Shown here in pieces: positions 989-20,562 of a stretch of 24,000 nt of DNA. This DNA comes from Catenulispora pinisilvae. GTDB lineage: Bacteria > Actinomycetota > Actinomycetes > Streptomycetales > Catenulisporaceae. A program made the translations under genes and the position numbers. The notes under the pieces are model-generated. The model was not told the DNA's origin and did not search any database. It saw nothing but the letters and a program-made list of their open reading frames with translations. The DNA is taken from NCBI RefSeq assembly GCF_015356865.1, contig NZ_JAAFZA010000134.1, positions 1-24,000 of the forward strand, read 5' to 3'. Position 1 is the first letter of the stretch. Every line of letters starts with the position of its first letter.

Positions 989-1570
989 TCATGCGTGTAT
1001 CGCAGAGTCCAGATACGCTAGCGCCTCGGCGGGCTCGTCGGCGAAGTGCACCAGATCGGCCAGCGGCAGCGGCAGGAAGCCCTCGTCCTCCATGCGGCGG
1101 AACTGCTGCTTCAGGCCGTCGTAGAAGCCGGCGGTGTTGAGCAGGACGATCGGCTTGGCGGTGTGGCCGTGCTTCTTCAGCTCCAGGATCTCGGTGGCCT
1201 CGTCCAGGGTGCCGGTGCCGCCGACCATCACCACCACCGCGTCGGCCTTGGCCAGCAGCAGCTTCTTGCGCTCGGCGAGGTCGGCGGCGACCACCATCTC
1301 GTCGGTGTCCGGGCGGGCCTTGTCGGACAGGAAGCCGACCGAGACCCCGACCAGGCGGCCGCCGCTGTCCTGGACACCGTCGGCGAGCACCTTCATCAGG
1401 CCGACGTCGGACCCGCCCCAGACCAGGGTGTGGCCGCCCTTGCCGAGGCGTTCGGCGAAGTCGCGGGCCGGGCCGGTGTAGCGCTCGTCGAGGTCGGCGG
1501 CGGAGAGGAAGACACAGATACGCATGAGATCACCGTACCCGCGAGGCCTGCGGGGGTACGGCGGACTCAC
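989..1570 (-). CDS. LOG family protein (TIGR00730 Rossmann-fold nucleotide-binding; cytokinin riboside 5'-monophosphate phosphoribohydrolase-like)
   Basis: Track ORF of 193 aa containing RICVFLSAADL..., GHTLVWGGSDVGLMK and the LOG signature VMVGGTGTLDEATE (PGGxGTxxE-like). The GTG at 1570 overlaps the upstream stop as GTGA. An alternative ATG at 1525 (MRICVF...) is at least as likely to be the true start. Confidence 0.85.
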   Translation of the reverse strand: MSPPYPRRPRGYGDLMRICVFLSAADLDERYTGPARDFAERLGKGGHTLVWGGSDVGLMKVLADGVQDSGGRLVGVSVGFLSDKARPDTDEMVVAADLAERKKLLLAKADAVVVMVGGTGTLDEATEILELKKHGHTAKPIVLLNTAGFYDGLKQQFRRMEDEGFLPLPLADLVHFADEPAEALAYLDSAIHA

Positions 1571-2616
1571 GCGGTGCCGATCTCAGGCGTCCCACCCACC
1601 CCTTTCGGGTCCAGCAGCCCCAGCCCGGCGGCGATCACCCCGGCCTGGAACCGGCTGCGCGCGCCGAAGGTCTCCATGAGTTCGGCGATGTGGCCGCGGC
1701 AGGCCCGGACCGACAGCCCCATGCGCTTGGCGATCACATCGTCCTTCAGGCCGTTGGCCATCAGCGTCAGGATCGAGGACTTGATCTCGGTGACGGCCAT
1801 CCGCGCGGCGGACGGGCCGGTCTGGTAGGGGGTGCCGAGGTTCCAGGACTGTTCGAAGGCCGAGCACAGGTAGGCCAGGATCGAGGGTTCGCGGACGACG
1901 ATCGCCCCGAACTCGTGGCGGACGTGCGGCAGGAACGCGGTCCGCTGGTCCACGACGATCATCTGGCCGGGGATCTCGGCGACGGTGCGGATCTGCGAGC
2001 CCTCGGCGAGGACGGCTTCGGCGTAGTCCTGGGTGGGGACGTGGAACCGCGCAGTGTGCTGATACAGGCTGCGCAGCACGATGCCGCGCCGCAGCAGTGC
2101 CAGGTCCCGGGGGAGGGCGTCGGCCAGGGCCCGGGGCGGCCGGCCGCCGCCGGGCTGGCAGGCCATGATCTCGCTCTCACAGGTCGCGGTCAGATCGCTG
2201 ATCAGGGCCCGGACGGCGTGCATGTCCTCGATGACGTCGACGCCGGGCGAGCCGCCTTCGTGGGCCAGTTCGGAGTAGACCGGCGCGAGCGCGGAGAGCC
2301 GGGCCCGGAGCCGGTCGGTGCTGCCGCGTTCGGCCAGCAGGTCCATCTCGGCCCGCCGGTGCGCGCTCTCACGCGGCCCGACCAGGGCCGCGATCGCCAC
2401 GTCGGGGCTGGCCGCGGCGACGGTGGCGCCGTCCCGGACCAGGACGTGCCGTTCCTCCAACAGCGCGACGGCCCGCCGGCACTCAGCTTCGGGGTGGCCG
2501 ACTTCCGACGGCATTCGCGCCAGGTCGGCCTCGGTCGGCCGACGCTCGGCGACCACCCAGGCGTAGACGGCGGCCAAGACGTCTTCCCCCTGTCCGGTTC
2601 CGGTCGGTCCGTCCAT
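1567..2616 (-). CDS. LuxR-family transcriptional regulator (C-terminal LuxR/GerE HTH, long N-terminal sensor/wHTH-like region)
   Basis: The C-terminus SILTLMANGLKDDVIAKRMGLSVRACRGHIAELMETFGARSRFQAGVIAA is a typical LuxR-type HTH. The track ORF extends to 2730. I place the start at the ATG at 2616 (MDGPTGTG...) because a GGAAGGAAG Shine-Dalgarno lies just upstream on the minus strand. Confidence 0.8.
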   Translation of the reverse strand: MDGPTGTGQGEDVLAAVYAWVVAERRPTEADLARMPSEVGHPEAECRRAVALLEERHVLVRDGATVAAASPDVAIAALVGPRESAHRRAEMDLLAERGSTDRLRARLSALAPVYSELAHEGGSPGVDVIEDMHAVRALISDLTATCESEIMACQPGGGRPPRALADALPRDLALLRRGIVLRSLYQHTARFHVPTQDYAEAVLAEGSQIRTVAEIPGQMIVVDQRTAFLPHVRHEFGAIVVREPSILAYLCSAFEQSWNLGTPYQTGPSAARMAVTEIKSSILTLMANGLKDDVIAKRMGLSVRACRGHIAELMETFGARSRFQAGVIAAGLGLLDPKGVGGTPEIGTA

Positions 2617-2750
2617 CGATGTCTTCCTTCCAGTTCTTCCCAGCCACATGGTGAACCATCTGCCACCTGTCGGCCCGGCTATTCCAGGAATCACTGTGTA
2701 TGAAGGAACCCTGACACGGGTGCCTGGCATTCACGTGAAAGGGACGAGAC

Positions 2751-2978
2751 ATGCGCAAGCTGAAAGCCGTCGCCCTGACCACCTTGGCCGTCGCCGGCGC
2801 GATCGCGACGACCACCGTCTCCACCGCCGCGTATGGCGCGGCGCGCACCACCGCTACGGCGGCCGCCCACACAGCGGCCGGCGTCCGGGGCGGCGAGGAC
2901 ACCGGCTGGGGGAACACGTGCCCGCCTCCCGGCTCCACGACGCCTCCCCCGCCGAAGTGCGCTACCCCGCACTTCTGA
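2751..2978 (+). CDS. Small secreted peptide (75 aa) with signal peptide and a Cys/Pro-rich C-terminus; hypothetical
   Basis: MRKLKAVALTTLAVAGAIATTTVSTAAYG looks like a Sec signal. The predicted mature part ends GEDTGWGNTCPPPGSTTPPPPKCATPHF and has two Cys. Third-position GC is high, and AAGGGA/GGGACGAG lies 6-12 nt upstream of the ATG. The gene is divergent from the LuxR gene. I recognise no family. Confidence 0.5.
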   Translation: MRKLKAVALTTLAVAGAIATTTVSTAAYGAARTTATAAAHTAAGVRGGEDTGWGNTCPPPGSTTPPPPKCATPHF

Positions 2979-3202
2979 TCCGCCCGGGCGACCGGGTGTG
3001 GTGAAGGCGACGGCAGCCGGCCGTCGTCGGGTGGGTGGTGGGACCTCACACCCGGGGTCTGTAAAAGCACTGAATCAGTCTGCTCCACGCTGCATAACCC
3101 GTCCCTAATGCGGGCCGGGGGGTGATCCCTCCTGCCCGGAATCACGGAACGAATGTCGCTCAACACCTCGAATCAGACATTGATGAAAGGAAGAGGACAC
3201 TA

Positions 3203-4996
3203 ATGAGATTCCCGCGCAACACCGGCTTGCGGGTCGCGCTGGCCGTCGGCGCGACCGCCCTCGGGCTGGTCGCGACCACTGGTGCGGCGTACGCCGCACC
3301 AGCCGTGCGCACCGCCTCCGTGACAACGGCGGCGTCCCCCCAGGACGCAGCCAGCACCTGTACCGACACCTCGTCCGAGGACGGCGACATCGCCGGCTGC
3401 ATGGCCGCGACGCGCGCCATGCAGTGGGTCGACGCCAACGGCGGCCAGGGCGTCGTCTACAACCAGGGCGACGGCACGTCCGGCTTCGGAAACTACCGGG
3501 CCGACTGTTCCGGCTACGTGTCCTACGCCCTCCACATCAGCGACACCTCACCCACCCCCGGTGGTCTGGTGTCCGGCCAGATGTACGAGTCCAACGGCTT
3601 CGTCGACGTCGCCAAGGACAACCTCCAGCAAGGCGATGTCCTCACCAACCCGTCCGCGGGCAGCCAAGGCCATGTGGTGATGTTCGACCACTGGTCGGAC
3701 TCCAGCCACACCGCCTACTGGGGCTTCGAACAACACGGTCCCAGCAACTCCTACGGCACCGCTTACCGCCTCATCACCTACCCCTATGACGACCCCAACG
3801 CCGGGACCTTCTACCCGCAGCACTACACCAAGCTGGTCCCGCCGACTCAGCCGCCGCCCCCGCCGGCCCAGACTCCGGCGCAGACCGCGGCGAGTTCGAC
3901 CCTGGTGCACGACGGCTACACGAGCGTCTACTCGGTCGACTCCAGCAACGGCCATCTCCAGGAGACCTACCTGCCCAAGATGGGCGGCTCCTGGGCCACT
4001 CAGGACCTCTCCACCAGGTACGGCACTCCGGCGGTGCTCGCGGGCACGCAGCCGGTCGCGATCTACCACGACGGATACACGAGCGTTTACACCGTCGACG
4101 CGAGCAACCACCACGTGCAGGAGACGTACCTGCCGAAGCTCGGGGGGCCCTGGGCCACCCAGGACCTGACGAACAACTACGGCGCGCCCACCACCTCGGT
4201 CACCCCGACCACCGTCCTGCACCAGGGCTGGCTGAGCGTGTACACGATCGACGAAAGCAACGGCCATCTGCAGGAGACGTACCTGCCCAAGCTCGGCGGC
4301 CCCTGGTACTCCAAGGACCTCGCGGCGGCTGAAGGCGCTCCGGCCTCGGCGAACATCAAGCCGGTCTCGATCATGCACAGCGGCTACACCAGCGTCTACA
4401 CCATCGACGCGGGAACCGGCCACGTCCGCGAAAGCTACATCGCCGCCCTCGGCCAGAACTGGACCACCCAGGACCTCTCCGCCAAGTACGGCACGCCGGC
4501 CACGACCGTGGCGCCGACCGTCGCGGTGCACCAGGGCTGGACCAGCATCTACACGATCGACAGCAACGGCCACCTGCAGGAGACCTACCTGTCCGCGATC
4601 GGTCAGCCCTGGTACTCCAAGGACCTGGTGCCCCAGTCCGGCACCCCGGCGGCCAGCCTGACCACCGCGCCGATCGCCCTGTTCCACGGCGGCTACACCA
4701 GCGTGTACACCGTCAACGCGAGCAACGGCCACCTCGAAGAGAGCTACTTCACCGGGCTCGGCGCGTCATGGACCAGCCAGGACCTGTCCGCCAAGTACGG
4801 CACGCCGAACCCGACCGGCGACATCGACGCCCTCGTGCACCCGGACGCGAACCAGAACATGGTCTACGCCAGCGTCTACTCGATCGATTCCGGCAGCAAC
4901 CAGCTCCAGGAGACCTACCTGGCCGCGATCGGCCAGGCCTGGCGCTCGCAGAGCCTGTCGGGCGGCTACGGAACACCCGCCGCATCCGTCATCTGA
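3203..4996 (+). CDS. Secreted NlpC/P60-like cysteine peptidase/amidase fused to a 7-repeat beta-propeller (lectin-like) domain
   Basis: The ATG at 3203 is preceded by GAAAGGAAGAGGA. The signal peptide is MRFPRNTGLRVALAVGATALGLVATTGAAYAAP. The head carries YRADCSGYVSYAL (catalytic Cys context) and GSQGHVVMFDHW (His context), as in NlpC/P60/CHAP-type hydrolases. A PPTQPPPPPAQTPAQT linker follows, then 7 repeats of about 52 aa. Confidence 0.85.
   Translation: MRFPRNTGLRVALAVGATALGLVATTGAAYAAPAVRTASVTTAASPQDAASTCTDTSSEDGDIAGCMAATRAMQWVDANGGQGVVYNQGDGTSGFGNYRADCSGYVSYALHISDTSPTPGGLVSGQMYESNGFVDVAKDNLQQGDVLTNPSAGSQGHVVMFDHWSDSSHTAYWGFEQHGPSNSYGTAYRLITYPYDDPNAGTFYPQHYTKLVPPTQPPPPPAQTPAQTAASSTLVHDGYTSVYSVDSSNGHLQETYLPKMGGSWATQDLSTRYGTPAVLAGTQPVAIYHDGYTSVYTVDASNHHVQETYLPKLGGPWATQDLTNNYGAPTTSVTPTTVLHQGWLSVYTIDESNGHLQETYLPKLGGPWYSKDLAAAEGAPASANIKPVSIMHSGYTSVYTIDAGTGHVRESYIAALGQNWTTQDLSAKYGTPATTVAPTVAVHQGWTSIYTIDSNGHLQETYLSAIGQPWYSKDLVPQSGTPAASLTTAPIALFHGGYTSVYTVNASNGHLEESYFTGLGASWTSQDLSAKYGTPNPTGDIDALVHPDANQNMVYASVYSIDSGSNQLQETYLAAIGQAWRSQSLSGGYGTPAASVI
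3899..4993 (+). repeat. Seven tandem repeats of about 50-53 aa (predicted 7-bladed beta-propeller), copy A
   Basis: The repeat consensus read from the translation is h-x-h-H-x-G-[YW]-T-S-V-Y-T-[VI]-D-x-S-N-G-H-L-Q-E-T-Y-L-x-x-h-G-G-x-W-x-[TS]-[QK]-D-L-x-x-x-Y-G-[TA]-P. There are seven units from TLVHDGYTSVYSVD to the C-terminal ...GYGTPAASVI. Confidence 0.85.
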
Positions 4997-5055
4997 GAGT
5001 AATCCGACAGCTAAATGGTAATCCCCTACTAAGAGGTATCCAAGGACTCGATGTC

Positions 5056-7242
5056 ATGAATAACAATCGCAGACTCCGAATACCCGCGGCCGCCCTCGGC
5101 ACCGTGCTGCTCGCCGCCACCGGTGTGGCGACCGTGGCCGCCGGCTCGGCCGGCGCCGTCACGGCGAACCCGACAAGCACGACGGGCACGGGCACGACAA
5201 GCGCTGCCGGCGCGTCGAGCTGGCAGGAGAACCTGGCCCAGGCCCACTCCGACGACGTGAACACCGCCTGGACCGGCCACGCGCTGGCCGTCCGGGACGT
5301 CCAAGCACACACGGCCGCCGCCCAGGACTCCCGTGGCTACGCCATGGACACATTCCCGGCGCACACTCTGTCCGCCGCGACGAACCAGCTCACTGTCGTC
5401 TCCAACGTGCAGCAGCCGTCCGGCTCCCGCGTCGAGGTCGACGTCCGGGGCCAGGCCGCGAACGGCACCTGGACTGAGTGGACCCCGGCCGGGGCGAACG
5501 GCGCCACCCGCTTGTCCGCGGCGGCGACGCTGGTGCAGACCCGCGTGACGATGTGGAGCAGCGCCTCGGGGACGGCGCCGAGCGTCACCAGCATCGCGGT
5601 GACCGCGGACGCGAACGTCACCGCGGCCGCGGCCGCCCCGAACGCCACCGCCACGCCACTGTCCTACAAGGTGTTCGCCACCGACGAGGGCTTGGTCGGC
5701 AGCACCACCGCCAACGGCCATGTGATCCAGCAGAACGACCACTTCGTGGCGCTGCCGTCCACGACCGCGCTGTCCCCGAAGGGGTCCGGCGAGTACTCGG
5801 TCCAGGTCTGCGGCCCGGTCCGGTGTGAGACCGCGCCGGTGTGGGACGTCGGTCCGTGGAACATCCACGACAACTACTGGGACAACCCGCGCGCCGAGTT
5901 CACCAGCCTCCCGCAGGGCGAGCCGGAGGCCCAGGCCGCTTACGACAACGGCTACAACGGCGACAAGTCAGACATCGGGTCCACGGTCGTGAACCCGGCC
6001 GGTATCGACCTGGCCGATGGCACCTTCTCCAACATCGGCCTGACCGACAACGGTGATGTCACCGTCACCTACCTGTGGACCAGCGGCGGAGGAACGCCGC
6101 CTCCGCCGCCGGCGCAGACCCCGGCGGAGACCGCCGCGAGTTCGACGCTGGTGCACGACGGCTACACGAGCGTGTACTCGGTGGACTCCAGCAACAGCCA
6201 CTTGCAGGAGACGTACCTGCCGAAGATGGGCGGCTCCTGGGCCACCCAGGACCTCTCCACCAACTACGGCACCCCGGCAGTGCTCGCGGGCACGCAGCCG
6301 GTGGCGATCTACCACGACGGATACACGAGCATTTACACCGTCGACGCCAGCAACCACCACTTGCAGGAGACGTACCTGCCCAAGCTCGGCGGGCCCTGGG
6401 CCACCCAGGACCTGACGAACAACTACGGCGCTCCGGCGACGTCGGTGACGCCCACGACGGTTCTGCACCAGGACTGGCTGAGCGTGTACACGATCGACCA
6501 GAGCAACGGCCACCTTCAGGAGACCTACCTGCCCAAGCTCGGCGGGCCCTGGTACTCCAAGGACCTCGCCGCCGCTGAGGGCGCCCCGGCCTCGGCCAAC
6601 ATCAAGCCGGTCTCGATCATGCACGGCGGCTACACCAGCGTCTACACCGTCGACGCCGGAACCGGCCACGTCCGCGAAAGCTACATCCCCGCACTCGGCC
6701 AGAACTGGGCCACCCAGGACCTCTCCGCCAAGTACAGCACCCCGGCGACCACCGTCGCCCCGACCGTCGCGGTGCACCAGGGCTGGACCAGCGTCTACAC
6801 CATCAACTCGAACGGCCACTTGCAGGAGACGTACCTGTCGGCCATCGGTCAGCCCTGGTACTCCAAGGATCTGGTGCCCCAGTCCGGGACGCCGGCCGCG
6901 AGCCTCAACACCGCTCCGGTCGCCCTGTACCACAACGGATACACGAGCGTTTACACTGTCGACGCTGGCACCGGCCACTTGGAGGAGAGCTACATTTCGC
7001 AGCTCGGCGCCTCGTGGACCAGCCAGGACCTGTCGGCCAAGTACGGCACGCCGAACCCGGCCGGCAACATCGACGCCCTCGTTCACCCCGACGCCAACCA
7101 GGCGATGACCTACGCGAGCGTTTACTCATTGGATGCCGGGAGCAACCAATTGCAGGAGACCTACCTGTCGGCCATCGGAAGCCCGTGGCGTACCCAGAGC
7201 CTGTCCATCGGCTACGGCACGCCCGCCGGCTCCGTGATCTGA
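5056..7242 (+). CDS. Secreted RlpA-like double-psi beta-barrel (DPBB) domain protein fused to the same 7-repeat beta-propeller domain
   Basis: An in-frame ATG at 5056 follows AAGAGG/AAGGA. The signal peptide is MNNNRRLRIPAAALGTVLLAATGVATVAAGSAGA. An unassigned domain of about 190 aa comes next. It is followed by VFATDEGLVGSTTANGHVIQQNDHFVALPS...YSVQVCGPVRCETAPVWDVGPWN...GIDLADGTFSNIGLTDNGDVTVTYLW, which matches the RlpA/3D/barwin-like DPBB pattern (G-x-T-A-x-G...A-L-P...V-x-D-x-G-P...IDL). A PPPPPAQTPAET linker and 7 repeats complete it. The track ORF start at 4768 lies inside the previous gene and is not used. Confidence 0.85.
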   Translation: MNNNRRLRIPAAALGTVLLAATGVATVAAGSAGAVTANPTSTTGTGTTSAAGASSWQENLAQAHSDDVNTAWTGHALAVRDVQAHTAAAQDSRGYAMDTFPAHTLSAATNQLTVVSNVQQPSGSRVEVDVRGQAANGTWTEWTPAGANGATRLSAAATLVQTRVTMWSSASGTAPSVTSIAVTADANVTAAAAAPNATATPLSYKVFATDEGLVGSTTANGHVIQQNDHFVALPSTTALSPKGSGEYSVQVCGPVRCETAPVWDVGPWNIHDNYWDNPRAEFTSLPQGEPEAQAAYDNGYNGDKSDIGSTVVNPAGIDLADGTFSNIGLTDNGDVTVTYLWTSGGGTPPPPPAQTPAETAASSTLVHDGYTSVYSVDSSNSHLQETYLPKMGGSWATQDLSTNYGTPAVLAGTQPVAIYHDGYTSIYTVDASNHHLQETYLPKLGGPWATQDLTNNYGAPATSVTPTTVLHQDWLSVYTIDQSNGHLQETYLPKLGGPWYSKDLAAAEGAPASANIKPVSIMHGGYTSVYTVDAGTGHVRESYIPALGQNWATQDLSAKYSTPATTVAPTVAVHQGWTSVYTINSNGHLQETYLSAIGQPWYSKDLVPQSGTPAASLNTAPVALYHNGYTSVYTVDAGTGHLEESYISQLGASWTSQDLSAKYGTPNPAGNIDALVHPDANQAMTYASVYSLDAGSNQLQETYLSAIGSPWRTQSLSIGYGTPAGSVI
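6145..7239 (+). repeat. Seven tandem repeats of about 50-53 aa (predicted 7-bladed beta-propeller), copy B
   Basis: Same repeat consensus, unit order and length as 3899..4993, and collinear without indels. By eye there are about 37 amino-acid differences over 381 aligned positions, counting the linker. Confidence 0.85.
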
Positions 7243-7280: not shown

Positions 7281-7320
7281 GGGTTCCCCCTCCGGTCCGC
7301 GCGACCGGCAGGGGGAACCC
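7281..7320 (+). terminator. Stem-loop downstream of the propeller gene pair (candidate intrinsic terminator)
   Basis: GGGTTCCCCCT-CCGGTC-cgcgc-GACCGG-c-AGGGGGAACCC has an 11-bp outer stem plus a 6-bp inner stem. It begins 39 nt after the stop at 7242 and is followed by TTCCCCCC, so there is no clean U-tract. Confidence 0.5.
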
Positions 7321-7371: not shown

Positions 7372-10065
7372 GTGTCCAACCCGGCTCTCGAGCCAACTCC
7401 TGCCCCAGGCTCCACCCCCGAACCGAGCGGCCCCGTCCTCGGCCGCCGCGGACTGCTGCGAAACACCAGCTTGGCGGCGCTCGCCGTGGGCGGGGCGTTC
7501 GGCGGGGTCGTCGACGGCACGGCCCAGGCTATGGCAGCGACTCAGCCTGCTGCGACGGCGATGGCGGCGGCGAAGGCGGCGGCTGCGACGGCGGCTGCGC
7601 CCCGCACCGCACAGGCCCGCGCGGACATCTCGTTCACCCCGCTGCGGCCGCCGGCCACGCCGCTGGCCGTGCGCTCGCCGTATCTGAGTACCTGGCTGGC
7701 CGGGGACTCCCTGGTCGGGACCTGGTCGTCGTTCTGGAACGGCCACACAACGGCGCTGTGCGGGATCGCGCGTATCGACGGCACGGCCTACCTGTTCGCC
7801 GGCGCGCCGGCGTCCAGCGTGGTGCCGAACAGCATGACCCAGACCTCGGTGCAGCTGACGGCGACCCGCTCGATCTTCACCTTCACCGCCGCCGGGGTGA
7901 CGCTGACCGTGACCTTCTTCTCCCCGGTCGAGCCGACGGACTTGCAGCGGCAGAGCGTGCCGTTGTCCTACGTGACGGTGCGGGCAGCGAGCGCCGACGG
8001 CGGTTCGCACACCGTCGATGTGCACCTGGACGTGTCGGCGGAGTGGGCGCACGGCGATGTGACGCAGCAGGTCACCTGGGCCCAGCAGCAGACCGGCGCG
8101 GGCAGCGTCATCATGGGCTTCACGCCGAACACGCCGACGGTGTTCGGCGAGCACGGCGACCAGGCCTCGTGGGGCACCTCGGTGCTGGCGTCGTCGGCCG
8201 CCGGCGGCCTGACATGGCAGCTGGGCCAGGACATCGTGGTGCGCGGCGCCTCGGTGTCGCAGGGGACGCTGCCGGACACCGTGGACCAGAACCAGCCGCG
8301 GGCCATCAACGACAACTGGCCGGTGGCCGGGTTGAACCGGAATCTGGGGACGGTGACGTCGGCCAGTCCCTCGGCGGTGTTCGTGGCGGCGGTCGGGCAC
8401 GTCCGCACGCCGGCGCTCACGTATCTGGGTGCTGATCTGCCGCCGTGGTGGTCGACGTACTGGGGCAGCTGGGAGGCGATGGTCGACTGGTTCCTGGCCG
8501 ACTATCCCGCGGCGCTGGCCTCGGCCCAGTCGCTGGAAGCGCAGATCGAGTCCACCGCTTCGGCGGCCGTGGGCGGCGGGTCGGTCGGTGCCGACTACGC
8601 GGCGTTGTGCGCGCTGGCCGCGCGGCAGGTCATCGGCGGGACCGAGTTGGTCAGCAGGAACGGGTCGCCGTGGGCGTTCCTGAAGGAGATCTCCTCCGAC
8701 GGCAACGTCTCCACGGTCGACGTGATCTACCCGGCGTTCCCCGGGCTGCTGTTCCTGGATCCGTCCTACCTACAGCTTCTGCTGGAGCCGATCCTGGACT
8801 ACAGCGAGAGCGGGCAATGGCCGAAAACGTTTGCGGTGCACGACCTGGGCAGCAGCTATCCGAACGCCGCCGGGCACAACGACGGCAACGAGGAGGACAT
8901 GCCGGTCGAGGAATCGGCCAACATGCTGATCATGATCGCGGCGCTGCTGCAACGCATACCGGCGGCCTCGGCGACGGCGTTCGCGCAGCAGCACTACACG
9001 ATCCTGAAGCAGTGGGCTGATTATCTGGTCCTCAACGCGCTGGACCCGGCGAACCAGAACCAGACCGACGATTTCACCGGCCCGATCGCGCACTCGGCGA
9101 ACCTGGCGCTCAAGGGCCAGGTGGCGATCGGGGCGATGAGCGTCATCTCCTCGATCGCCGGGTCGGCGTACGCGGCGGATCAGGCCTCGTACTACTCCAC
9201 CGCGCGCAGCTACATCAGCCAGTGGGTGACCAAGGGCGAGGACCCGTCGGGGACGTACCTGGACCTGGCCTACGGCTCGCCGACCACCTGGTCGCTGAAG
9301 TACAACGGGTTCCCGGACAAGCTGCTCGGGCTGAACCTGGTGCCGACCGGGATCAAGACTCAGGAGGCCGGCTGGTACCAGTCCAACGCCGGCACCTACG
9401 GCGTGATCCTGGACCCGCGGCACAACTACACCAAGGCCGACTGGGAGATCTTCACCGCGGCGTTCCTGTCCGACCAGCCGGTCCGCGACACCCTGATCCA
9501 GGGGGTGTACGGGTTCGCGAACAGCACCGGCAACCGGGTGCCGTTCTCCGACTGGTACGACGTCACCTCGGCCGCGCAGCAGGGCTTCCAGAACCGGCCG
9601 GTGGTCGGCGCGATGTTCGCCCCGGCGCTGACCGTCACCGCCGACCGCACCCGGTGGTACAAGATCCAGAACCAGAACTCCGGCAAGGTGCTGGCGGTCT
9701 CGGGGATGTCACTGGCCGACGTCACGAACGTGACGCAGTGGACTGACAACGGGACCCCCGACCATCTGTGGGCCGTCGTGCCGAACCCGGACGGGACGGT
9801 GCGGATCGTGAACCGGAACAGCGGCAAGGTGCTCGCCGTGCACAACCAGGACACCTCGGCGGGGGCGTTCGTGCAGCAGTACATGGACAACGGGACGCCG
9901 GACCACCTGTGGCGGATCTCCGACGCCGGGAACGGCTGGTCGAAGATCTTCAATGTGCACAGCGGGTTGCTGATGGCGGTCAGCGGGGCCTCCACCGCCG
10001 ACGGCGCGCAGGTGACGCAGTGGAATGACAATGGGACCACGGATCACTTGTGGCGGTTGGTGTAG
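7372..10065 (+). CDS. Tat-signal secreted glutaminase GtaA-like (DUF5127/DUF4965/DUF1793 family, putative glycoside hydrolase) with C-terminal ricin-type beta-trefoil lectin domain
   Basis: The GTG start follows GAAGGGA. GRRGLLRNTSLAALAVGGA is a twin-arginine signal. FTPLRPPATPLAVRSPYLSTWL...ARIDGTAYLF matches the N-terminal signature of the fungal/bacterial glutaminase-A family. The C-terminal 140 aa or so carry three (Q/D)xW-type trefoil repeats: VTQWTDNGTPDHLW, VQQYMDNGTPDHLW and VTQWNDNGTTDHLW. Confidence 0.85.
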   Translation: MSNPALEPTPAPGSTPEPSGPVLGRRGLLRNTSLAALAVGGAFGGVVDGTAQAMAATQPAATAMAAAKAAAATAAAPRTAQARADISFTPLRPPATPLAVRSPYLSTWLAGDSLVGTWSSFWNGHTTALCGIARIDGTAYLFAGAPASSVVPNSMTQTSVQLTATRSIFTFTAAGVTLTVTFFSPVEPTDLQRQSVPLSYVTVRAASADGGSHTVDVHLDVSAEWAHGDVTQQVTWAQQQTGAGSVIMGFTPNTPTVFGEHGDQASWGTSVLASSAAGGLTWQLGQDIVVRGASVSQGTLPDTVDQNQPRAINDNWPVAGLNRNLGTVTSASPSAVFVAAVGHVRTPALTYLGADLPPWWSTYWGSWEAMVDWFLADYPAALASAQSLEAQIESTASAAVGGGSVGADYAALCALAARQVIGGTELVSRNGSPWAFLKEISSDGNVSTVDVIYPAFPGLLFLDPSYLQLLLEPILDYSESGQWPKTFAVHDLGSSYPNAAGHNDGNEEDMPVEESANMLIMIAALLQRIPAASATAFAQQHYTILKQWADYLVLNALDPANQNQTDDFTGPIAHSANLALKGQVAIGAMSVISSIAGSAYAADQASYYSTARSYISQWVTKGEDPSGTYLDLAYGSPTTWSLKYNGFPDKLLGLNLVPTGIKTQEAGWYQSNAGTYGVILDPRHNYTKADWEIFTAAFLSDQPVRDTLIQGVYGFANSTGNRVPFSDWYDVTSAAQQGFQNRPVVGAMFAPALTVTADRTRWYKIQNQNSGKVLAVSGMSLADVTNVTQWTDNGTPDHLWAVVPNPDGTVRIVNRNSGKVLAVHNQDTSAGAFVQQYMDNGTPDHLWRISDAGNGWSKIFNVHSGLLMAVSGASTADGAQVTQWNDNGTTDHLWRLV

Positions 10066-19309: not shown

Positions 19310-19461
19310 GTGACGGGATCGACACAACATCTGCACTTCCCAGATCGCGATCCCGGAGTACCGTCGTCACAACAGCGGTCCGCGTCTCCTCCGAGCGCGG
19401 CGCCGACCCTCAGACTTGGATCGTCCGGCACGTTCCTGCCGGTCAGAAGGGGAAGGTTGAC
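19310..19461 (+). promoter_or_regulatory. Structured 5' leader upstream of the msiK-like gene (possible msiK RNA motif; unverified)
   Basis: There are three hairpins. The first is GTGAC/GGGATCG...CGATCCC/GTCAC (19310-19370). The second is CCGCG-N11-CGCGG (19380-19400). The third is CCGGCA-cgttcc-TGCCGG (19425-19442), followed within a few nt by the AGAAGGGGAAGG Shine-Dalgarno region. Rfam describes a conserved actinobacterial motif in msiK leaders, but I cannot match its consensus from memory. Confidence 0.3.

Positions 19462-20562
<1,101 letters not shown>

What the first reader, a model, noticed from the sequence alone, without database searches (positions are those of the whole stretch)
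3203..7242. Two tandem secreted proteins with unrelated wall-hydrolase-like heads on the same 7-bladed propeller tail
Gene A is signal peptide + NlpC/P60-like Cys/His hydrolase head + poly-Pro linker + 7 repeats. Gene B is signal peptide + unassigned domain of about 190 aa + RlpA/DPBB-like domain + the same linker + the same 7 repeats. They are separated by only 59 nt of unusually AT-rich sequence with a good ribosome-binding site and no terminator, so they are probably co-transcribed. A strong hairpin follows gene B. Swapping catalytic heads on one targeting module suggests a toolkit directed at one glycan surface, either the organism's own wall or that of a competitor or fungus. I do not recognise this architecture as a characterised system.
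Basis: partly seen in the sequence, partly recalled or inferred. Interest (0 to 1): 0.65.

Follow-up and report, generated by a model that had tools for sequence, protein, structure and literature searches.

The report
Paired lectin-tailed secreted cell-wall hydrolases
Two neighbouring genes of a Catenulispora soil actinomycete encode secreted enzymes, one a peptidoglycan peptidase and the other probably a glycan-strand-cleaving enzyme, that carry nearly the same seven-bladed sugar-binding propeller; the parts are known kinds, but this propeller as a shared targeting tail has not been studied.

Summary
Gene A (3203-4996) and gene B (5056-7242) are 59 nt apart. Each has a signal peptide, a catalytic head, a proline linker and seven ~52-aa repeats. 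The two tails are 90% identical, and a strong hairpin follows B.

Head A is an NlpC/P60-superfamily Cys/His peptidase; this is solid. Head B is a jelly-roll beta-sandwich followed by a probable RlpA/kiwellin-like double-psi beta-barrel. That assignment rests on four weak but concordant lines of evidence.

The tail models confidently (pLDDT 91). Its 14 best structural matches are all Photorhabdus PLL-family lectins, yet no PLL sequence profile matches it, so it is a remote, unmodelled relative.

The pair is conserved in C. pinistramenti. Similar tandem pairs with other heads occur in Micromonospora and Dactylosporangium. Tails within a pair stay alike, partly through gene conversion.

However, in the genomes found by a motif-limited scan the tail most often follows a GH54-type arabinofuranosidase domain. 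It is therefore a portable lectin module, not one specific to wall hydrolases.

Verdict: a new variant of modular, carbohydrate-tethered wall hydrolases. Interest is moderate. The ligand and target are unknown.

The parts
2751..2978 (+). Small upstream ORF of 75 aa with a signal-peptide-like N-terminus, a Pro-rich tail and 2 Cys. It may belong to the locus; its function is unknown.
   Evidence: The ORF is conserved and was called as a gene in Catenulispora sp. NL8. GC3 is 0.89 and an RBS-like GAAAGGGA lies upstream. Between the two species there are 9 non-synonymous and only 2 synonymous differences, so coding status is uncertain.
3203..4996 (+). Gene A: secreted NlpC/P60-type peptidase with a C-terminal seven-bladed propeller (597 aa).
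   Evidence: ORF and start codon. GGAAGAGGA lies 6 nt before the ATG. The orthologue P0002 in NL8 is 92% identical in the tail.
3203..3295 (+). Signal peptide of A (aa 1-31, ending AYA).
   Evidence: Read from the sequence. No predictor was run.
3389..3835 (+). NlpC/P60 / Amidase_5-like catalytic head of A (aa ~63-211). Cys102 is at 3506-3508 and His157 at 3671-3673.
   Evidence: Pfam Amidase_5 scores 27.9 bits against a cut-off of 21; NLPC_P60 scores 20.3 against a cut-off of 23. The profile of 7 related heads hits solved NlpC/P60 enzymes (7cfl 1e-4, MepS/Spr 5e-4, RipA), with DCSG and H-V aligned. PHROG 998 'endolysin' matches at 7e-6. Cys and His are invariant in the alignment.
3836..3898 (+). 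Pro-rich linker of A (VPPTQPPPPPAQTPAQTAASS).
3899..4993 (+). Seven-bladed PLL-like beta-propeller tail of A (aa 233-597).
   Evidence: Seven repeats. AlphaFold2 model: pLDDT 91.2, pTM 0.91, 7 blades of 4 strands. Foldseek top 14 hits are all PLL-family lectins, E 3e-18 to 3e-16, TM 0.76-0.85.
4997..5055 (+). 59-nt A/T-rich spacer with the RBS of gene B (AAGGA at 5042-5046).
   Evidence: 56 of 59 positions are identical in NL8. No fold and no terminator.
5056..7242 (+). Gene B: secreted beta-sandwich + DPBB-like protein with the same propeller tail (728 aa).
   Evidence: It is 100% identical to WP_194925869.1, a 'hypothetical protein' of Catenulispora pinisilvae.
5056..5157 (+). Signal peptide of B (aa 1-34). 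The RR in NNRRLRIP might indicate Tat export.
   Evidence: Read from the sequence. No predictor was run.
5215..5610 (+). N-terminal beta-sandwich (jelly-roll, CBM/ConA-like) domain of head B (aa ~54-185).
   Evidence: AlphaFold2 pLDDT is about 88-96 over this part. Weak Foldseek matches: CBM6, CBM61, PNGase C-terminal domain and MAM at E 6e-3 to 1e-2; viral ConA/LamG-like jelly rolls at 6e-4 to 2e-3.
5659..6087 (+). Probable double-psi beta-barrel (RlpA/kiwellin-like) domain of head B (aa ~202-344), carrying an insertion of about 45 aa. Asp264 (VWDVGPW) is at 5845-5847 and Asp318 (GIDLADG) at 6007-6009.
   Evidence: Foldseek: kiwellins 6e-4, loosenin 8e-3; phage RlpA-like proteins 4.5e-5 and 4.4e-3. 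hhalign against the RlpA DPBB profile gives P = 0.003 but probability only 10%, with TANGH/TASGE and VWDVGPW/INDRGPY aligned. Pfam DPBB_1 appears in only 1 of 31 members at E 0.18. The AlphaFold2 confidence is low here.
6088..6144 (+). Pro-rich linker of B (GGTPPPPPAQTPAETAASS).
6145..7239 (+). Seven-bladed PLL-like propeller tail of B (aa 364-728).
   Evidence: 90% identical in protein to the tail of A. Seven repeats.
7281..7320 (+). Stem-loop after gene B; probable terminator without a U-tract.
   Evidence: dG -36.4 kcal/mol, z = -4.2. The NL8 counterpart folds at -37.2.
1567..2730 (-). Divergently transcribed LuxR/GerE-family regulator, a candidate regulator of the pair.
   Evidence: Pfam GerE. 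The same gene order is seen in NL8. The regulatory link is inferred from position only.

Best explanation
Genes A and B form a two-gene operon that encodes a matched pair of secreted, lectin-tethered cell-wall hydrolases.

- Gene A's head is an NlpC/P60-superfamily cysteine peptidase or amidase that cuts the peptide part of peptidoglycan.
- Gene B's head is a carbohydrate-binding-like beta-sandwich followed by an RlpA-like double-psi beta-barrel. This most likely attacks or loosens the glycan strands.
- Each head is joined by a flexible proline linker to almost the same seven-bladed beta-propeller.
- The propeller is a remote structural relative of the Photorhabdus PLL lectins. It acts as a multivalent sugar-binding anchor with up to seven equivalent sites: an invariant His, Ser, Glu and Trp recur in every blade.
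- The shared tail concentrates both enzymes on the same glycan-bearing surface, so that the peptide and glycan bonds of one wall are attacked together.

Shown: the gene structure, the head A family with its catalytic residues, the propeller fold and its nearest relatives, conservation of the pair, and recurrence of such pairs.

Inferred: co-transcription, catalytic activity of head B, sugar binding by the tail, and the target. I lean towards walls of other microbes rather than the producer's own wall. My reasons are that the genes are accessory, sit next to a dedicated regulator, and combine two activities as lytic enzymes do.
For: Head A.
- Amidase_5 scores above Pfam's cut-off.
- 6 of 7 related heads match NLPC_P60.
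- Cys and His align to MepS/Spr and RipA.
- PHROG 'endolysin' matches.

Head B.
- The family has more than 2700 clusters at 90% identity and 926 representatives at 50%.
- Elsewhere its C-termini are SH3_3 (14 of 31 members), PG_binding_1 or Inhibitor_I36. SH3_3 and PG_binding_1 are wall-binding modules that occupy the place of the propeller.
- Four independent weak signals point to a DPBB fold.
- Many acidic residues are invariant, including D264 and D318.

Tail.
- The model is confident.
- The top 14 Foldseek hits are all PLL lectins; six-bladed fucose lectins come next.
- His, Ser, Glu and Trp are invariant in all seven blades across tails that are only 43-72% identical.

Operon.
- The 59-nt spacer with its RBS is 56/59 conserved, and the same gene order occurs in C. 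pinistramenti NL8.
- A hairpin is found only after B.

Matched tails.
- Blades 1-4 are as alike or more alike between paralogues (0.89-0.97) than between orthologues (0.86-0.95).
- Blades 5-7 show the reverse: 0.77-0.89 between A-type and B-type tails against 0.90-0.97 between orthologues. This pattern indicates gene conversion.

Recurrence.
- Dactylosporangium has GH25 + tail followed 20 nt later by an NlpC/P60-like head + tail.
- Micromonospora has an unassigned head + tail next to a muramidase-like head + tail with identical tails.
- In the tail tree, the two tails of each pair are nearest neighbours.
Against: - No activity or binding has been measured for any member.
- Head B's DPBB domain was modelled with pLDDT below 50. 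Pfam DPBB_1 is not reached. The hhalign probability is only 10%. Many DPBB proteins (expansins, kiwellins, E. coli RlpA) are not enzymes.
- No PLL/DUF346-type sequence profile matches the tail. The tail has one invariant Trp per blade, whereas the PLL fucose pocket uses two (PMC5584973).
- The commonest partner of this tail in the genomes found is a GH54-type arabinofuranosidase domain. The ligand may therefore be a non-wall glycan.
- Co-transcription has not been shown.
- No promoter-like site was found with a sigma-70 consensus. This says little for an actinomycete.
Confidence: 0.6

Rival explanations
1. Same proteins, different purpose. They are autolysins for the producer's own wall (hyphal growth, branching, sporulation). 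The propeller holds them on a glycopolymer of Catenulispora's own envelope.
For: - Head B's family is nearly ubiquitous in Streptomyces as a ~430-aa secreted protein with SH3b or PG_binding_1 tails, which suggests a housekeeping wall role.
- NlpC/P60 enzymes such as RipA and MepS are growth autolysins (named).
Against: - The tailed versions are rare and patchy: 32 loci were found by a motif-limited scan of 185,579 species genomes.
- C. acidiphila has head B with a different C-terminus: P0112 is 443 aa and lies among hits carrying Inhibitor_I36.
- Catenulispora sp. GAS73 has only a lone gene elsewhere in its genome.
- Dedicated regulators lie beside several loci.
Confidence: 0.25
2. The tail binds a plant, fungal or matrix polysaccharide rather than a bacterial wall polymer. 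The enzymes would then be parked on plant litter, fungal hyphae or extracellular matrix. The heads would act on whatever wall material is nearby, or on fungal wall components.
For: - 17 of 20 genome-locus heads tested are GH54-type alpha-L-arabinofuranosidase catalytic domains directly followed by 7 or 14 of these repeats.
- The Catenulispora tails are sister to that clade in the tail tree, and their closest relatives outside the genus (59-61% identical) carry that head.
- The next gene in the window is a secreted glycoside-hydrolase-like protein with ricin lectin domains.
Against: - In three other tail clades every identified partner is a peptidoglycan hydrolase: CHAP, GH25, M23, NlpC/P60 or muramidase-like.
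- A plant-glycan anchor gives no obvious benefit to a peptidoglycan peptidase.
Confidence: 0.15
3. Gene B is not an enzyme. Its DPBB is an expansin/loosenin/kiwellin-like non-catalytic binder or wall loosener, or an inhibitor, that assists or regulates gene A.
For: - The best structural matches are kiwellins and a loosenin, which are non-hydrolytic DPBB proteins.
- Some head B relatives carry an Inhibitor_I36-like domain.
Against: - The domain is extremely conserved, with many invariant acidic and polar residues over 926 representatives. This is more typical of an active site.
- The Asp aligned with RlpA's INDRGP motif is invariant.
Confidence: 0.2
4. The propeller is a structural or protein-protein interaction scaffold, not a lectin.
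For: - Beta-propellers serve many functions.
- No PLL sequence signature or two-Trp pocket was detected.
Against: - The top structural neighbours are exclusively lectins, followed by glycosidases.
- Nearly all fusion partners are carbohydrate-active or wall-active enzymes, with the propeller in the position usually held by a binding module.
- There is a sevenfold-repeated invariant His/Ser/Glu/Trp set.
Confidence: 0.07

Closest known systems
[quoted passage not shown]
   Same: Seven blades of four antiparallel strands, about 50 aa per blade, about 365 aa in all. They are the best structural matches by a wide margin: TM 0.76-0.85, E about 1e-17. The family is known to carry up to 7 + 7 inter-blade sugar sites (PMC6943638, PMC5584973).
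   Different: - Only 14-17% identical, with no profile-level sequence match.
- One invariant Trp per blade instead of the two-Trp fucose pocket.
- PLL lectins are stand-alone proteins of a Gram-negative insect pathogen. Here the propeller is a C-terminal module on secreted enzymes of actinomycetes.
- The ligand is unknown.
NlpC/P60 peptidoglycan endopeptidases (E. coli MepS/Spr, M. tuberculosis RipA) and Amidase_5 phage lysins
   Same: Papain-like Cys/His core, with the DCSG Cys and the H-V His aligned. Secreted and wall-directed. Often modular, with binding domains.
   Different: - Gene A itself falls below Pfam's NLPC_P60 cut-off (20.3 against 23) and is closer to Amidase_5.
- It has an extra Cys-containing N-terminal segment.
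- Its binding module is a propeller rather than LysM, SH3b or a coiled coil.
RlpA and other double-psi beta-barrel proteins (Pfam DPBB_1; kiwellin, expansin/loosenin, MltA/3D domains)
   Same: The motif order T-A-x-G, (A)LP, V-x-D-x-G-P and I-D-L matches RlpA. Kiwellin, loosenin and phage RlpA-like proteins are the best fold matches.
   Different: - An insertion of about 45 aa lies between the two halves.
- The domain is preceded by a conserved beta-sandwich.
- No Pfam model reaches threshold.
- The family is essentially uncharacterised and annotated 'hypothetical' or 'secreted protein'.
Modular lysins and autolysins with a catalytic head plus a cell-wall-binding module (phage endolysins; lysostaphin-type M23 + SH3b)
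   Same: Head-linker-binding-module design. Complementary peptidase and glycosidase activities are used together. Head B relatives use SH3b or PG_binding_1 where this protein has the propeller.
   Different: - The two activities lie on two adjacent genes with a duplicated tail, not in one polypeptide.
- The binding module is a multivalent lectin-type propeller.
- There is no phage context: tblastn against phages found nothing for head B, and the neighbours are chromosomal housekeeping and regulatory genes.
GH54 alpha-L-arabinofuranosidase B with its C-terminal arabinose-binding domain (CBM42) (from my own knowledge of the fungal enzyme)
   Same: In most genome loci the propeller sits directly after an AbfB-type catalytic domain, the position held by CBM42 in the fungal enzymes.
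   Different: The window's genes have no GH54 domain. The propeller is unrelated in fold to the beta-trefoil CBM42.

Membership tests
PLL-family lectins (PropLec7A / Pfam DUF346, Beta-prop_PLL) | Seven-bladed propeller of four-stranded blades, with PLL proteins as closest structural relatives | tested here: met
   AlphaFold2 model: pLDDT 91, pTM 0.91, 7 blades of 4 strands. Foldseek ranks 1-14 are all PLL2-5 or PHL, TM 0.76-0.85. The next hits are six-bladed AAL-type lectins at E about 1e-11.
PLL-family lectins (PropLec7A / Pfam DUF346, Beta-prop_PLL) | Match to the family's sequence profile | tested here: not met
   - No DUF346 hit at E <= 10.
- The 12-tail profile finds no PDB chain at E <= 10, although PLL structures are present there.
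- hhalign against a protein recorded as PF26607 Beta-prop_PLL gives probability 0.4%.
- None of 101 tail-bearing proteins lists PF03984 or PF26607 among its precomputed Pfam hits.
- Caveat: the local Pfam copy appears to lack PF26607.
- NCBI nevertheless names P0049 'PLL family lectin'.
PLL-family lectins (PropLec7A / Pfam DUF346, Beta-prop_PLL) | Hydrophobic fucose pocket built from two Trp per inter-blade site, plus a polar site with a further Trp (PMC5584973) | tested here: inconclusive
   Only one Trp is invariant per blade; His, Ser and Glu are invariant as well. Model coordinates could not be inspected, so site geometry was not compared.
PLL-family lectins (PropLec7A / Pfam DUF346, Beta-prop_PLL) | Binding of L-fucose or O-methylated sugars | not testable with these tools
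   Needs glycan arrays, ITC or SPR with recombinant tail.
NlpC/P60 superfamily (Pfam clan of NLPC_P60, CHAP, Amidase_5) | Profile match above the curated threshold | tested here: met
   Amidase_5 scores 27.9 bits against a cut-off of 21. NLPC_P60 itself scores 20.3 against 23 for gene A, but 6 of 7 related heads match it, best E 1.4e-6. Solved NlpC/P60 enzymes are hit at 1e-4 to 1e-3.
NlpC/P60 superfamily (Pfam clan of NLPC_P60, CHAP, Amidase_5) | Catalytic Cys at the start of a helix and a downstream His | tested here: met
   Cys102 (DCSG) and His157 (GHV) are invariant in 7 heads. They align with the DCSGF and HV motifs of MepS/Spr.
NlpC/P60 superfamily (Pfam clan of NLPC_P60, CHAP, Amidase_5) | Third polar residue of the catalytic triad | tested here: inconclusive
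   A conserved E/Q position (FEQ/YEQ) follows the His strand, but it was not mapped onto a structure.
RlpA-like double-psi beta-barrel (Pfam DPBB_1) | Profile match above threshold | tested here: not met
   DPBB_1 appears in 1 of 31 members at E 0.18. The head B profile hits nothing in the PDB. An RlpA HMM scores the domain at only 8-14 bits.
RlpA-like double-psi beta-barrel (Pfam DPBB_1) | DPBB fold | tested here: inconclusive
   The model of this domain has pLDDT below 50. Even so, its best matches are DPBB proteins: kiwellins 6e-4, loosenin 8e-3, and phage RlpA-like proteins 4.5e-5 and 4.4e-3.
RlpA-like double-psi beta-barrel (Pfam DPBB_1) | Conserved Asp in the V-x-D-x-G-P strand and the I-D-L motif | tested here: met
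   hhalign aligns VWDVGPW with INDRGPY (P = 0.003). D264 and D318 are invariant in 31 and in 14 family members.
RlpA-like double-psi beta-barrel (Pfam DPBB_1) | Lytic transglycosylase activity | not testable with these tools
   Needs muropeptide analysis with purified protein.

The most novel reading that the evidence does not exclude
The repeats define a lectin family not yet modelled by Pfam or represented by sequence in the PDB, a remote sister of the PLL lectins. Filamentous actinomycetes use it as a portable, seven-site glycan anchor. Where it has been joined to wall hydrolases, evolution has repeatedly produced a tandem 'glycan cutter + peptide cutter' cassette. Its two tails are kept identical by gene conversion so that both enzymes home to one specific surface glycan of a competing microbe. 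In short, a regulated, secreted, target-selective bacteriolytic weapon, and a source of new lectin specificities.
Probability: 0.3. Interest if true: 0.65.

Novelty: new variant of a known kind. Interest (0 to 1): 0.45.

Why it matters
If the reading is right, four things follow.
- The locus gives a natural pair of enzymes with complementary bond specificity delivered by one lectin. This design could be copied for engineered lysins.
- It points to an uncharacterised propeller lectin family with up to seven equivalent sites and an unknown ligand. Such a lectin could serve as a glycan probe.
- It gives a first functional handle on a very large family of actinomycete 'hypothetical secreted proteins': head B has more than 2700 clusters at 90% identity.
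- The mosaic gene conversion between the tails is a clear small example of selection, or recombination, keeping two binding modules matched.

None of this overturns current ideas. Modular wall hydrolases with carbohydrate-binding tails are well known.

Tried and rejected
- Sequence searches of both whole proteins, the 12-tail profile and the head B profile against all PDB chains found nothing useful.
- NCBIfam gave only spurious hits to the proline linker.
- Pfam hits on the tail are matches of 17-20 residues to a single blade motif. I treat them as spurious labels, not as families. They are SSV1_ORF_D-335, Lipase_C, MFMR and DUF4384.
- tblastn of the head B DPBB region against 50,697 phage records found no match, so a prophage lysin origin is not supported.
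- The AlphaFold2 model of head B failed for the DPBB half (pLDDT below 50). Structural matches for that half are therefore only hints.
- A c-di-AMP (ydaO-type) or other riboswitch upstream of gene A was considered, because such elements precede wall hydrolase genes in Streptomyces (my own knowledge). Rfam found nothing in 2650-3250 at E <= 1.
- The sigma-70 promoter scan found nothing. This is uninformative for this phylum.
- The small ORF after the Dactylosporangium pair and the PF26607 protein nearby are unrelated to anything in the window.
- The Saccharibacteria PilX2 'PLL-like' propeller (PMC11623550) carries RCC1 repeats, and I did not count it as a relative.
- The original PLL paper (PMC5122772) is not held.

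Full report
**What is in the sequence**

The window is high-G+C DNA (about 69%). Gene B is 100% identical to WP_194925869.1, a 'hypothetical protein' of Catenulispora pinisilvae.

- Gene A runs 3203..4996 (597 aa) and gene B 5056..7242 (728 aa), both on the + strand.
- The two genes are 59 nt apart. The spacer is 46% G+C and contains the most A/T-rich 59-nt stretch of the whole window. AAGGA lies 9 nt before the ATG of B. The spacer has no stable fold and no terminator-like site.
- A 17-bp stem-loop (7281..7320, -36.4 kcal/mol, z = -4.2) follows B.
- Both proteins begin with a signal-peptide-like segment. Both end in a proline linker followed by seven repeats of about 52 aa.
- The tails are 90% identical in protein and 87.5% in DNA.

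One correction applies: the 'unassigned ~190 aa' of B is a short T/G/S-rich spacer plus a domain of about 135 aa.

**Head A**

- Pfam Amidase_5 is matched above its curated cut-off (27.9 against 21 bits). NLPC_P60 falls just below its cut-off.
- I aligned seven related heads found on the same kind of tail. The invariant residues are R-x-D-C-S-G-x-V-S, G-D and H-V.
- The profile of that alignment hits solved NlpC/P60 enzymes: 7cfl at 1e-4, MepS/Spr at 5e-4, plus RipA and others. The Cys and His are aligned to their DCSGF and HV motifs.
- PHROG 998 'endolysin' also matches.

I regard head A as a Cys/His peptidoglycan peptidase or amidase of the NlpC/P60 superfamily.

**Head B**

- The head as a whole belongs to a very large family of actinomycete proteins. 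A word-based search found 2769 clusters. Most are annotated 'hypothetical' or 'secreted protein' of about 430 aa.
- No Pfam model covers the head.
- The C-termini of relatives are SH3_3 (14 of 31), PG_binding_1, PG_binding_3 or Inhibitor_I36. Known wall-binding modules thus occupy the position of the propeller.
- AlphaFold2 models the first ~135 residues as a beta-sandwich with pLDDT about 90. The second half falls below 50.

For the second half, four weak lines of evidence agree on a double-psi beta-barrel.
- The best PDB fold matches are kiwellins (6e-4) and a loosenin (8e-3).
- The best named viral matches are RlpA-like proteins (4.5e-5 and 4.4e-3).
- hhalign of a 139-member domain alignment against an 81-member RlpA DPBB alignment gives P = 0.003. 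It aligns LVG-TTANGH with HG-TTSSGE, FVALPS with TAAHPTLP, and APVWDVGPW with VVRINDRGPF. The reported probability is only 10%.
- One family member touches Pfam DPBB_1 at E 0.18.

The domain is remarkably conserved over 926 representatives at 50% identity. Its invariant residues include D264 and D318. I put the DPBB assignment at roughly two in three. Whether the domain is catalytic remains open.

**The tail**

- A model built from 12 diverse tails has pLDDT 91.2 and pTM 0.91. It shows seven blades of four strands, each blade followed by a short helix.
- Foldseek against the PDB returns Photorhabdus PLL2, PLL3, PLL4, PLL5 and PHL at ranks 1-14 (E 3e-18 to 3e-16, TM 0.76-0.85, 14-17% identity).
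- After a gap of five to six orders of magnitude come the six-bladed fucose lectins AOL, FleA, AAL and AFL. Sialidases and GH43 enzymes follow.
- PLL lectins carry up to seven hydrophobic and seven polar sugar sites between blades. They bind L-fucose and O-methylated sugars (PMC6943638, PMC5584973, PMC12203525).

At the sequence level the relationship is not detectable.
- There is no DUF346 hit. DUF346 is the Pfam family equated with PLL-like lectins in PMC7778903.
- The profile finds no PDB chain.
- hhalign against a PF26607 (Beta-prop_PLL) protein gives probability 0.4%.

The Pfam names that do appear on these tails are 17-20-residue motif matches. In every blade a His, a Ser, a Glu and a Trp are invariant across tails that are only 43-72% identical. 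This is what seven equivalent binding sites would look like. It differs from the two-Trp fucose pocket of PLL. I therefore file the tail as 'works like, and folds like, a PLL lectin; membership by sequence not shown'.

**Conservation and evolution of the pair**

- In Catenulispora pinistramenti NL8 the order LOG-family gene, LuxR/GerE regulator, 75-aa ORF, A, 59 nt, B is the same. The spacer is 56/59 identical and the hairpin is kept.
- A metagenomic fragment (P0102) carries a head B that is 66% identical, joined to the same linker and first blade.
- Catenulispora sp. GAS73 has only one NlpC/P60 + tail gene, at another locus.
- I compared the four tails in 150-nt windows. In blades 1-4 the paralogues are as similar or more similar (0.89-0.97) than the orthologues (0.86-0.95). 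In blades 5-7 the orthologues (0.90-0.97) are far closer than A-type and B-type tails are to each other (0.77-0.89).

The duplication therefore predates the split of the two species. The 5' half of the tails has since been homogenised by gene conversion.

**The wider family**

- The tail search found 101 proteins, all from actinomycetes or soil metagenomes.
- The heads seen there include CHAP, GH25, M23, NlpC/P60, an AbfB-type catalytic domain and BNR. Two singletons, an AAA ATPase and a kinase, may be fragments.

Tandem pairs recur.
- In Dactylosporangium sp. McL0621 a GH25 + tail gene is followed after 20 nt by an NlpC/P60-like + tail gene.
- In Micromonospora sp. AKA38 an unassigned head + tail gene lies next to a head + tail gene whose head matches solved muramidases (8b2h, 1e-8). 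The two tails are identical.
- Both of these loci lie beside a BTAD-NB-ARC-TPR regulator.
- In a neighbour-joining tree of tails, the partners of each pair are nearest neighbours. Within the Micromonosporaceae clade, GH25, M23, NlpC/P60-like, muramidase-like and unassigned heads are mixed on closely related tails.

Head swapping on one tail is thus a real, repeated process. In the two pairs where both heads can be assigned, one is a glycan-strand enzyme and the other a peptide-bond enzyme. These are the Dactylosporangium pair and, if the DPBB assignment holds, the Catenulispora pair.

- A scan of one genome per species (185,579 species) with a fixed blade motif found 32 loci. All are in Actinomycetota except one Ktedonobacteraceae fragment.
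- Of 20 heads tested, 17 are GH54-type alpha-L-arabinofuranosidase B catalytic domains (E 1e-48 to 1e-144). Each is directly followed by 7 or, often, 14 repeats, that is, a double propeller.
- The Catenulispora tails are sister to this AbfB-linked clade. Their closest relatives outside the genus (59-61%) carry that head.

The propeller is therefore a portable lectin or carbohydrate-binding module, not a wall-hydrolase-specific device. Its ligand need not be part of a bacterial wall.

**Mechanism I consider most likely**

- One transcript, probably under the neighbouring LuxR-type regulator, yields two secreted enzymes.
- Their nearly identical multivalent lectin tails bring them to the same glycan-decorated surface.
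- There the peptidase (A) and the probable glycan-strand enzyme (B) act together on peptidoglycan.

The accessory, patchy distribution, the dedicated regulators and the two-activity design make me lean towards lysis of other microbes, or scavenging of their walls, rather than remodelling of the producer's own wall. That step is inference.

The rivals are an autolysin role, a non-wall ligand, a non-catalytic head B and a non-lectin propeller. They are listed above with the tests that would separate them.

**Novelty**

- All three domain kinds are known, and so is the head-linker-binding-module design.
- Several things are not described in the literature I could search: a PLL-like propeller used as the binding module of wall hydrolases, the recurrent tandem pairs with matched tails, and any function for the head B family.
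- Public annotation calls these proteins 'hypothetical', or names them after the head alone.

I rate the finding a new variant of a known kind, of moderate interest.

Noticed in passing
window 2751-2978 (+): A 75-aa ORF between the LuxR gene and gene A has a signal-peptide-like start, a Pro-rich C-terminus with two Cys, and GC3 of 0.89. It is conserved and called as a gene in Catenulispora sp. NL8. The two species differ by 9 non-synonymous and only 2 synonymous changes. The 224 nt between it and gene A are about 95% conserved.
   Followed up: partly
window 3899-4993 versus 6145-7239; L001 counterparts: Mosaic concerted evolution of the two tails. Blades 1-4 are homogenised between paralogues within each species. 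Blades 5-7 keep the orthologous signal. The Micromonospora pair P0049/P0051 has identical tails.
   Followed up: yes
window 7372-10065 (+): The next gene encodes an 897-aa secreted protein with DUF4964, DUF5127, a glutaminase-A-type six-hairpin domain and ricin-type lectin repeats. It is another lectin-tagged, glycan-directed enzyme right after the pair. Whether it is functionally linked is unknown; the NL8 contig ends before it.
   Followed up: no
window 19399-19454 (+): Rfam msiK RNA (43 bits, gathering score 33) lies directly upstream of a MsiK/MalK-type ABC ATPase gene at 19462-20562. This is an expected pairing and is unrelated to the finding.
   Followed up: yes
L011, L013, L016-L021, L023-L025, L027, L034 (Streptomyces, Actinoplanes, Kitasatospora, Actinospica, Actinacidiphila and MAGs): Large secreted proteins consist of an AbfB/GH54-type catalytic domain followed by 14 of these repeats, presumably two seven-bladed propellers in tandem. 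Some carry additional ricin, GDSL or endo/exonuclease-phosphatase domains.
   Followed up: partly
L004 4688-7522; L005 6834-9572; L002 3325-5692: BTAD-NB-ARC-TPR (SARP/AfsR-like) or NB-ARC/TPR regulators lie next to tail-bearing hydrolase genes in Micromonospora, Dactylosporangium and Catenulispora sp. GAS73. The window has a LuxR/GerE regulator instead.
   Followed up: no
L005 16369-16998: A 209-aa secreted protein recorded as Pfam PF26607 (Beta-prop_PLL) lies 4.5 kb from the Dactylosporangium pair. It shows no detectable similarity to the tail (hhalign probability 0.4%). The local Pfam copy did not recognise it, so that copy seems to lack PF26607.
   Followed up: partly
window 3899-4993 and homologues P0001-P0101: Public Pfam labels on these tails come from one 17-20-residue blade motif and are misleading. 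They are SSV1_ORF_D-335, MFMR, DUF5501, DUF4384 and Lipase_C. Separately, UniRef's 'Bacteriophage lysin domain-containing protein' for P0002 presumably reflects the Amidase_5-like head.
   Followed up: yes
P0001 / L015 (Streptomyces sp. NPDC020983): A 624-aa protein consists of 12 repeats with no head. Several ~400-aa proteins have only a signal peptide plus seven repeats (P0008, P0022, P0030). Stand-alone secreted propellers therefore exist, like the Photorhabdus lectins.
   Followed up: no
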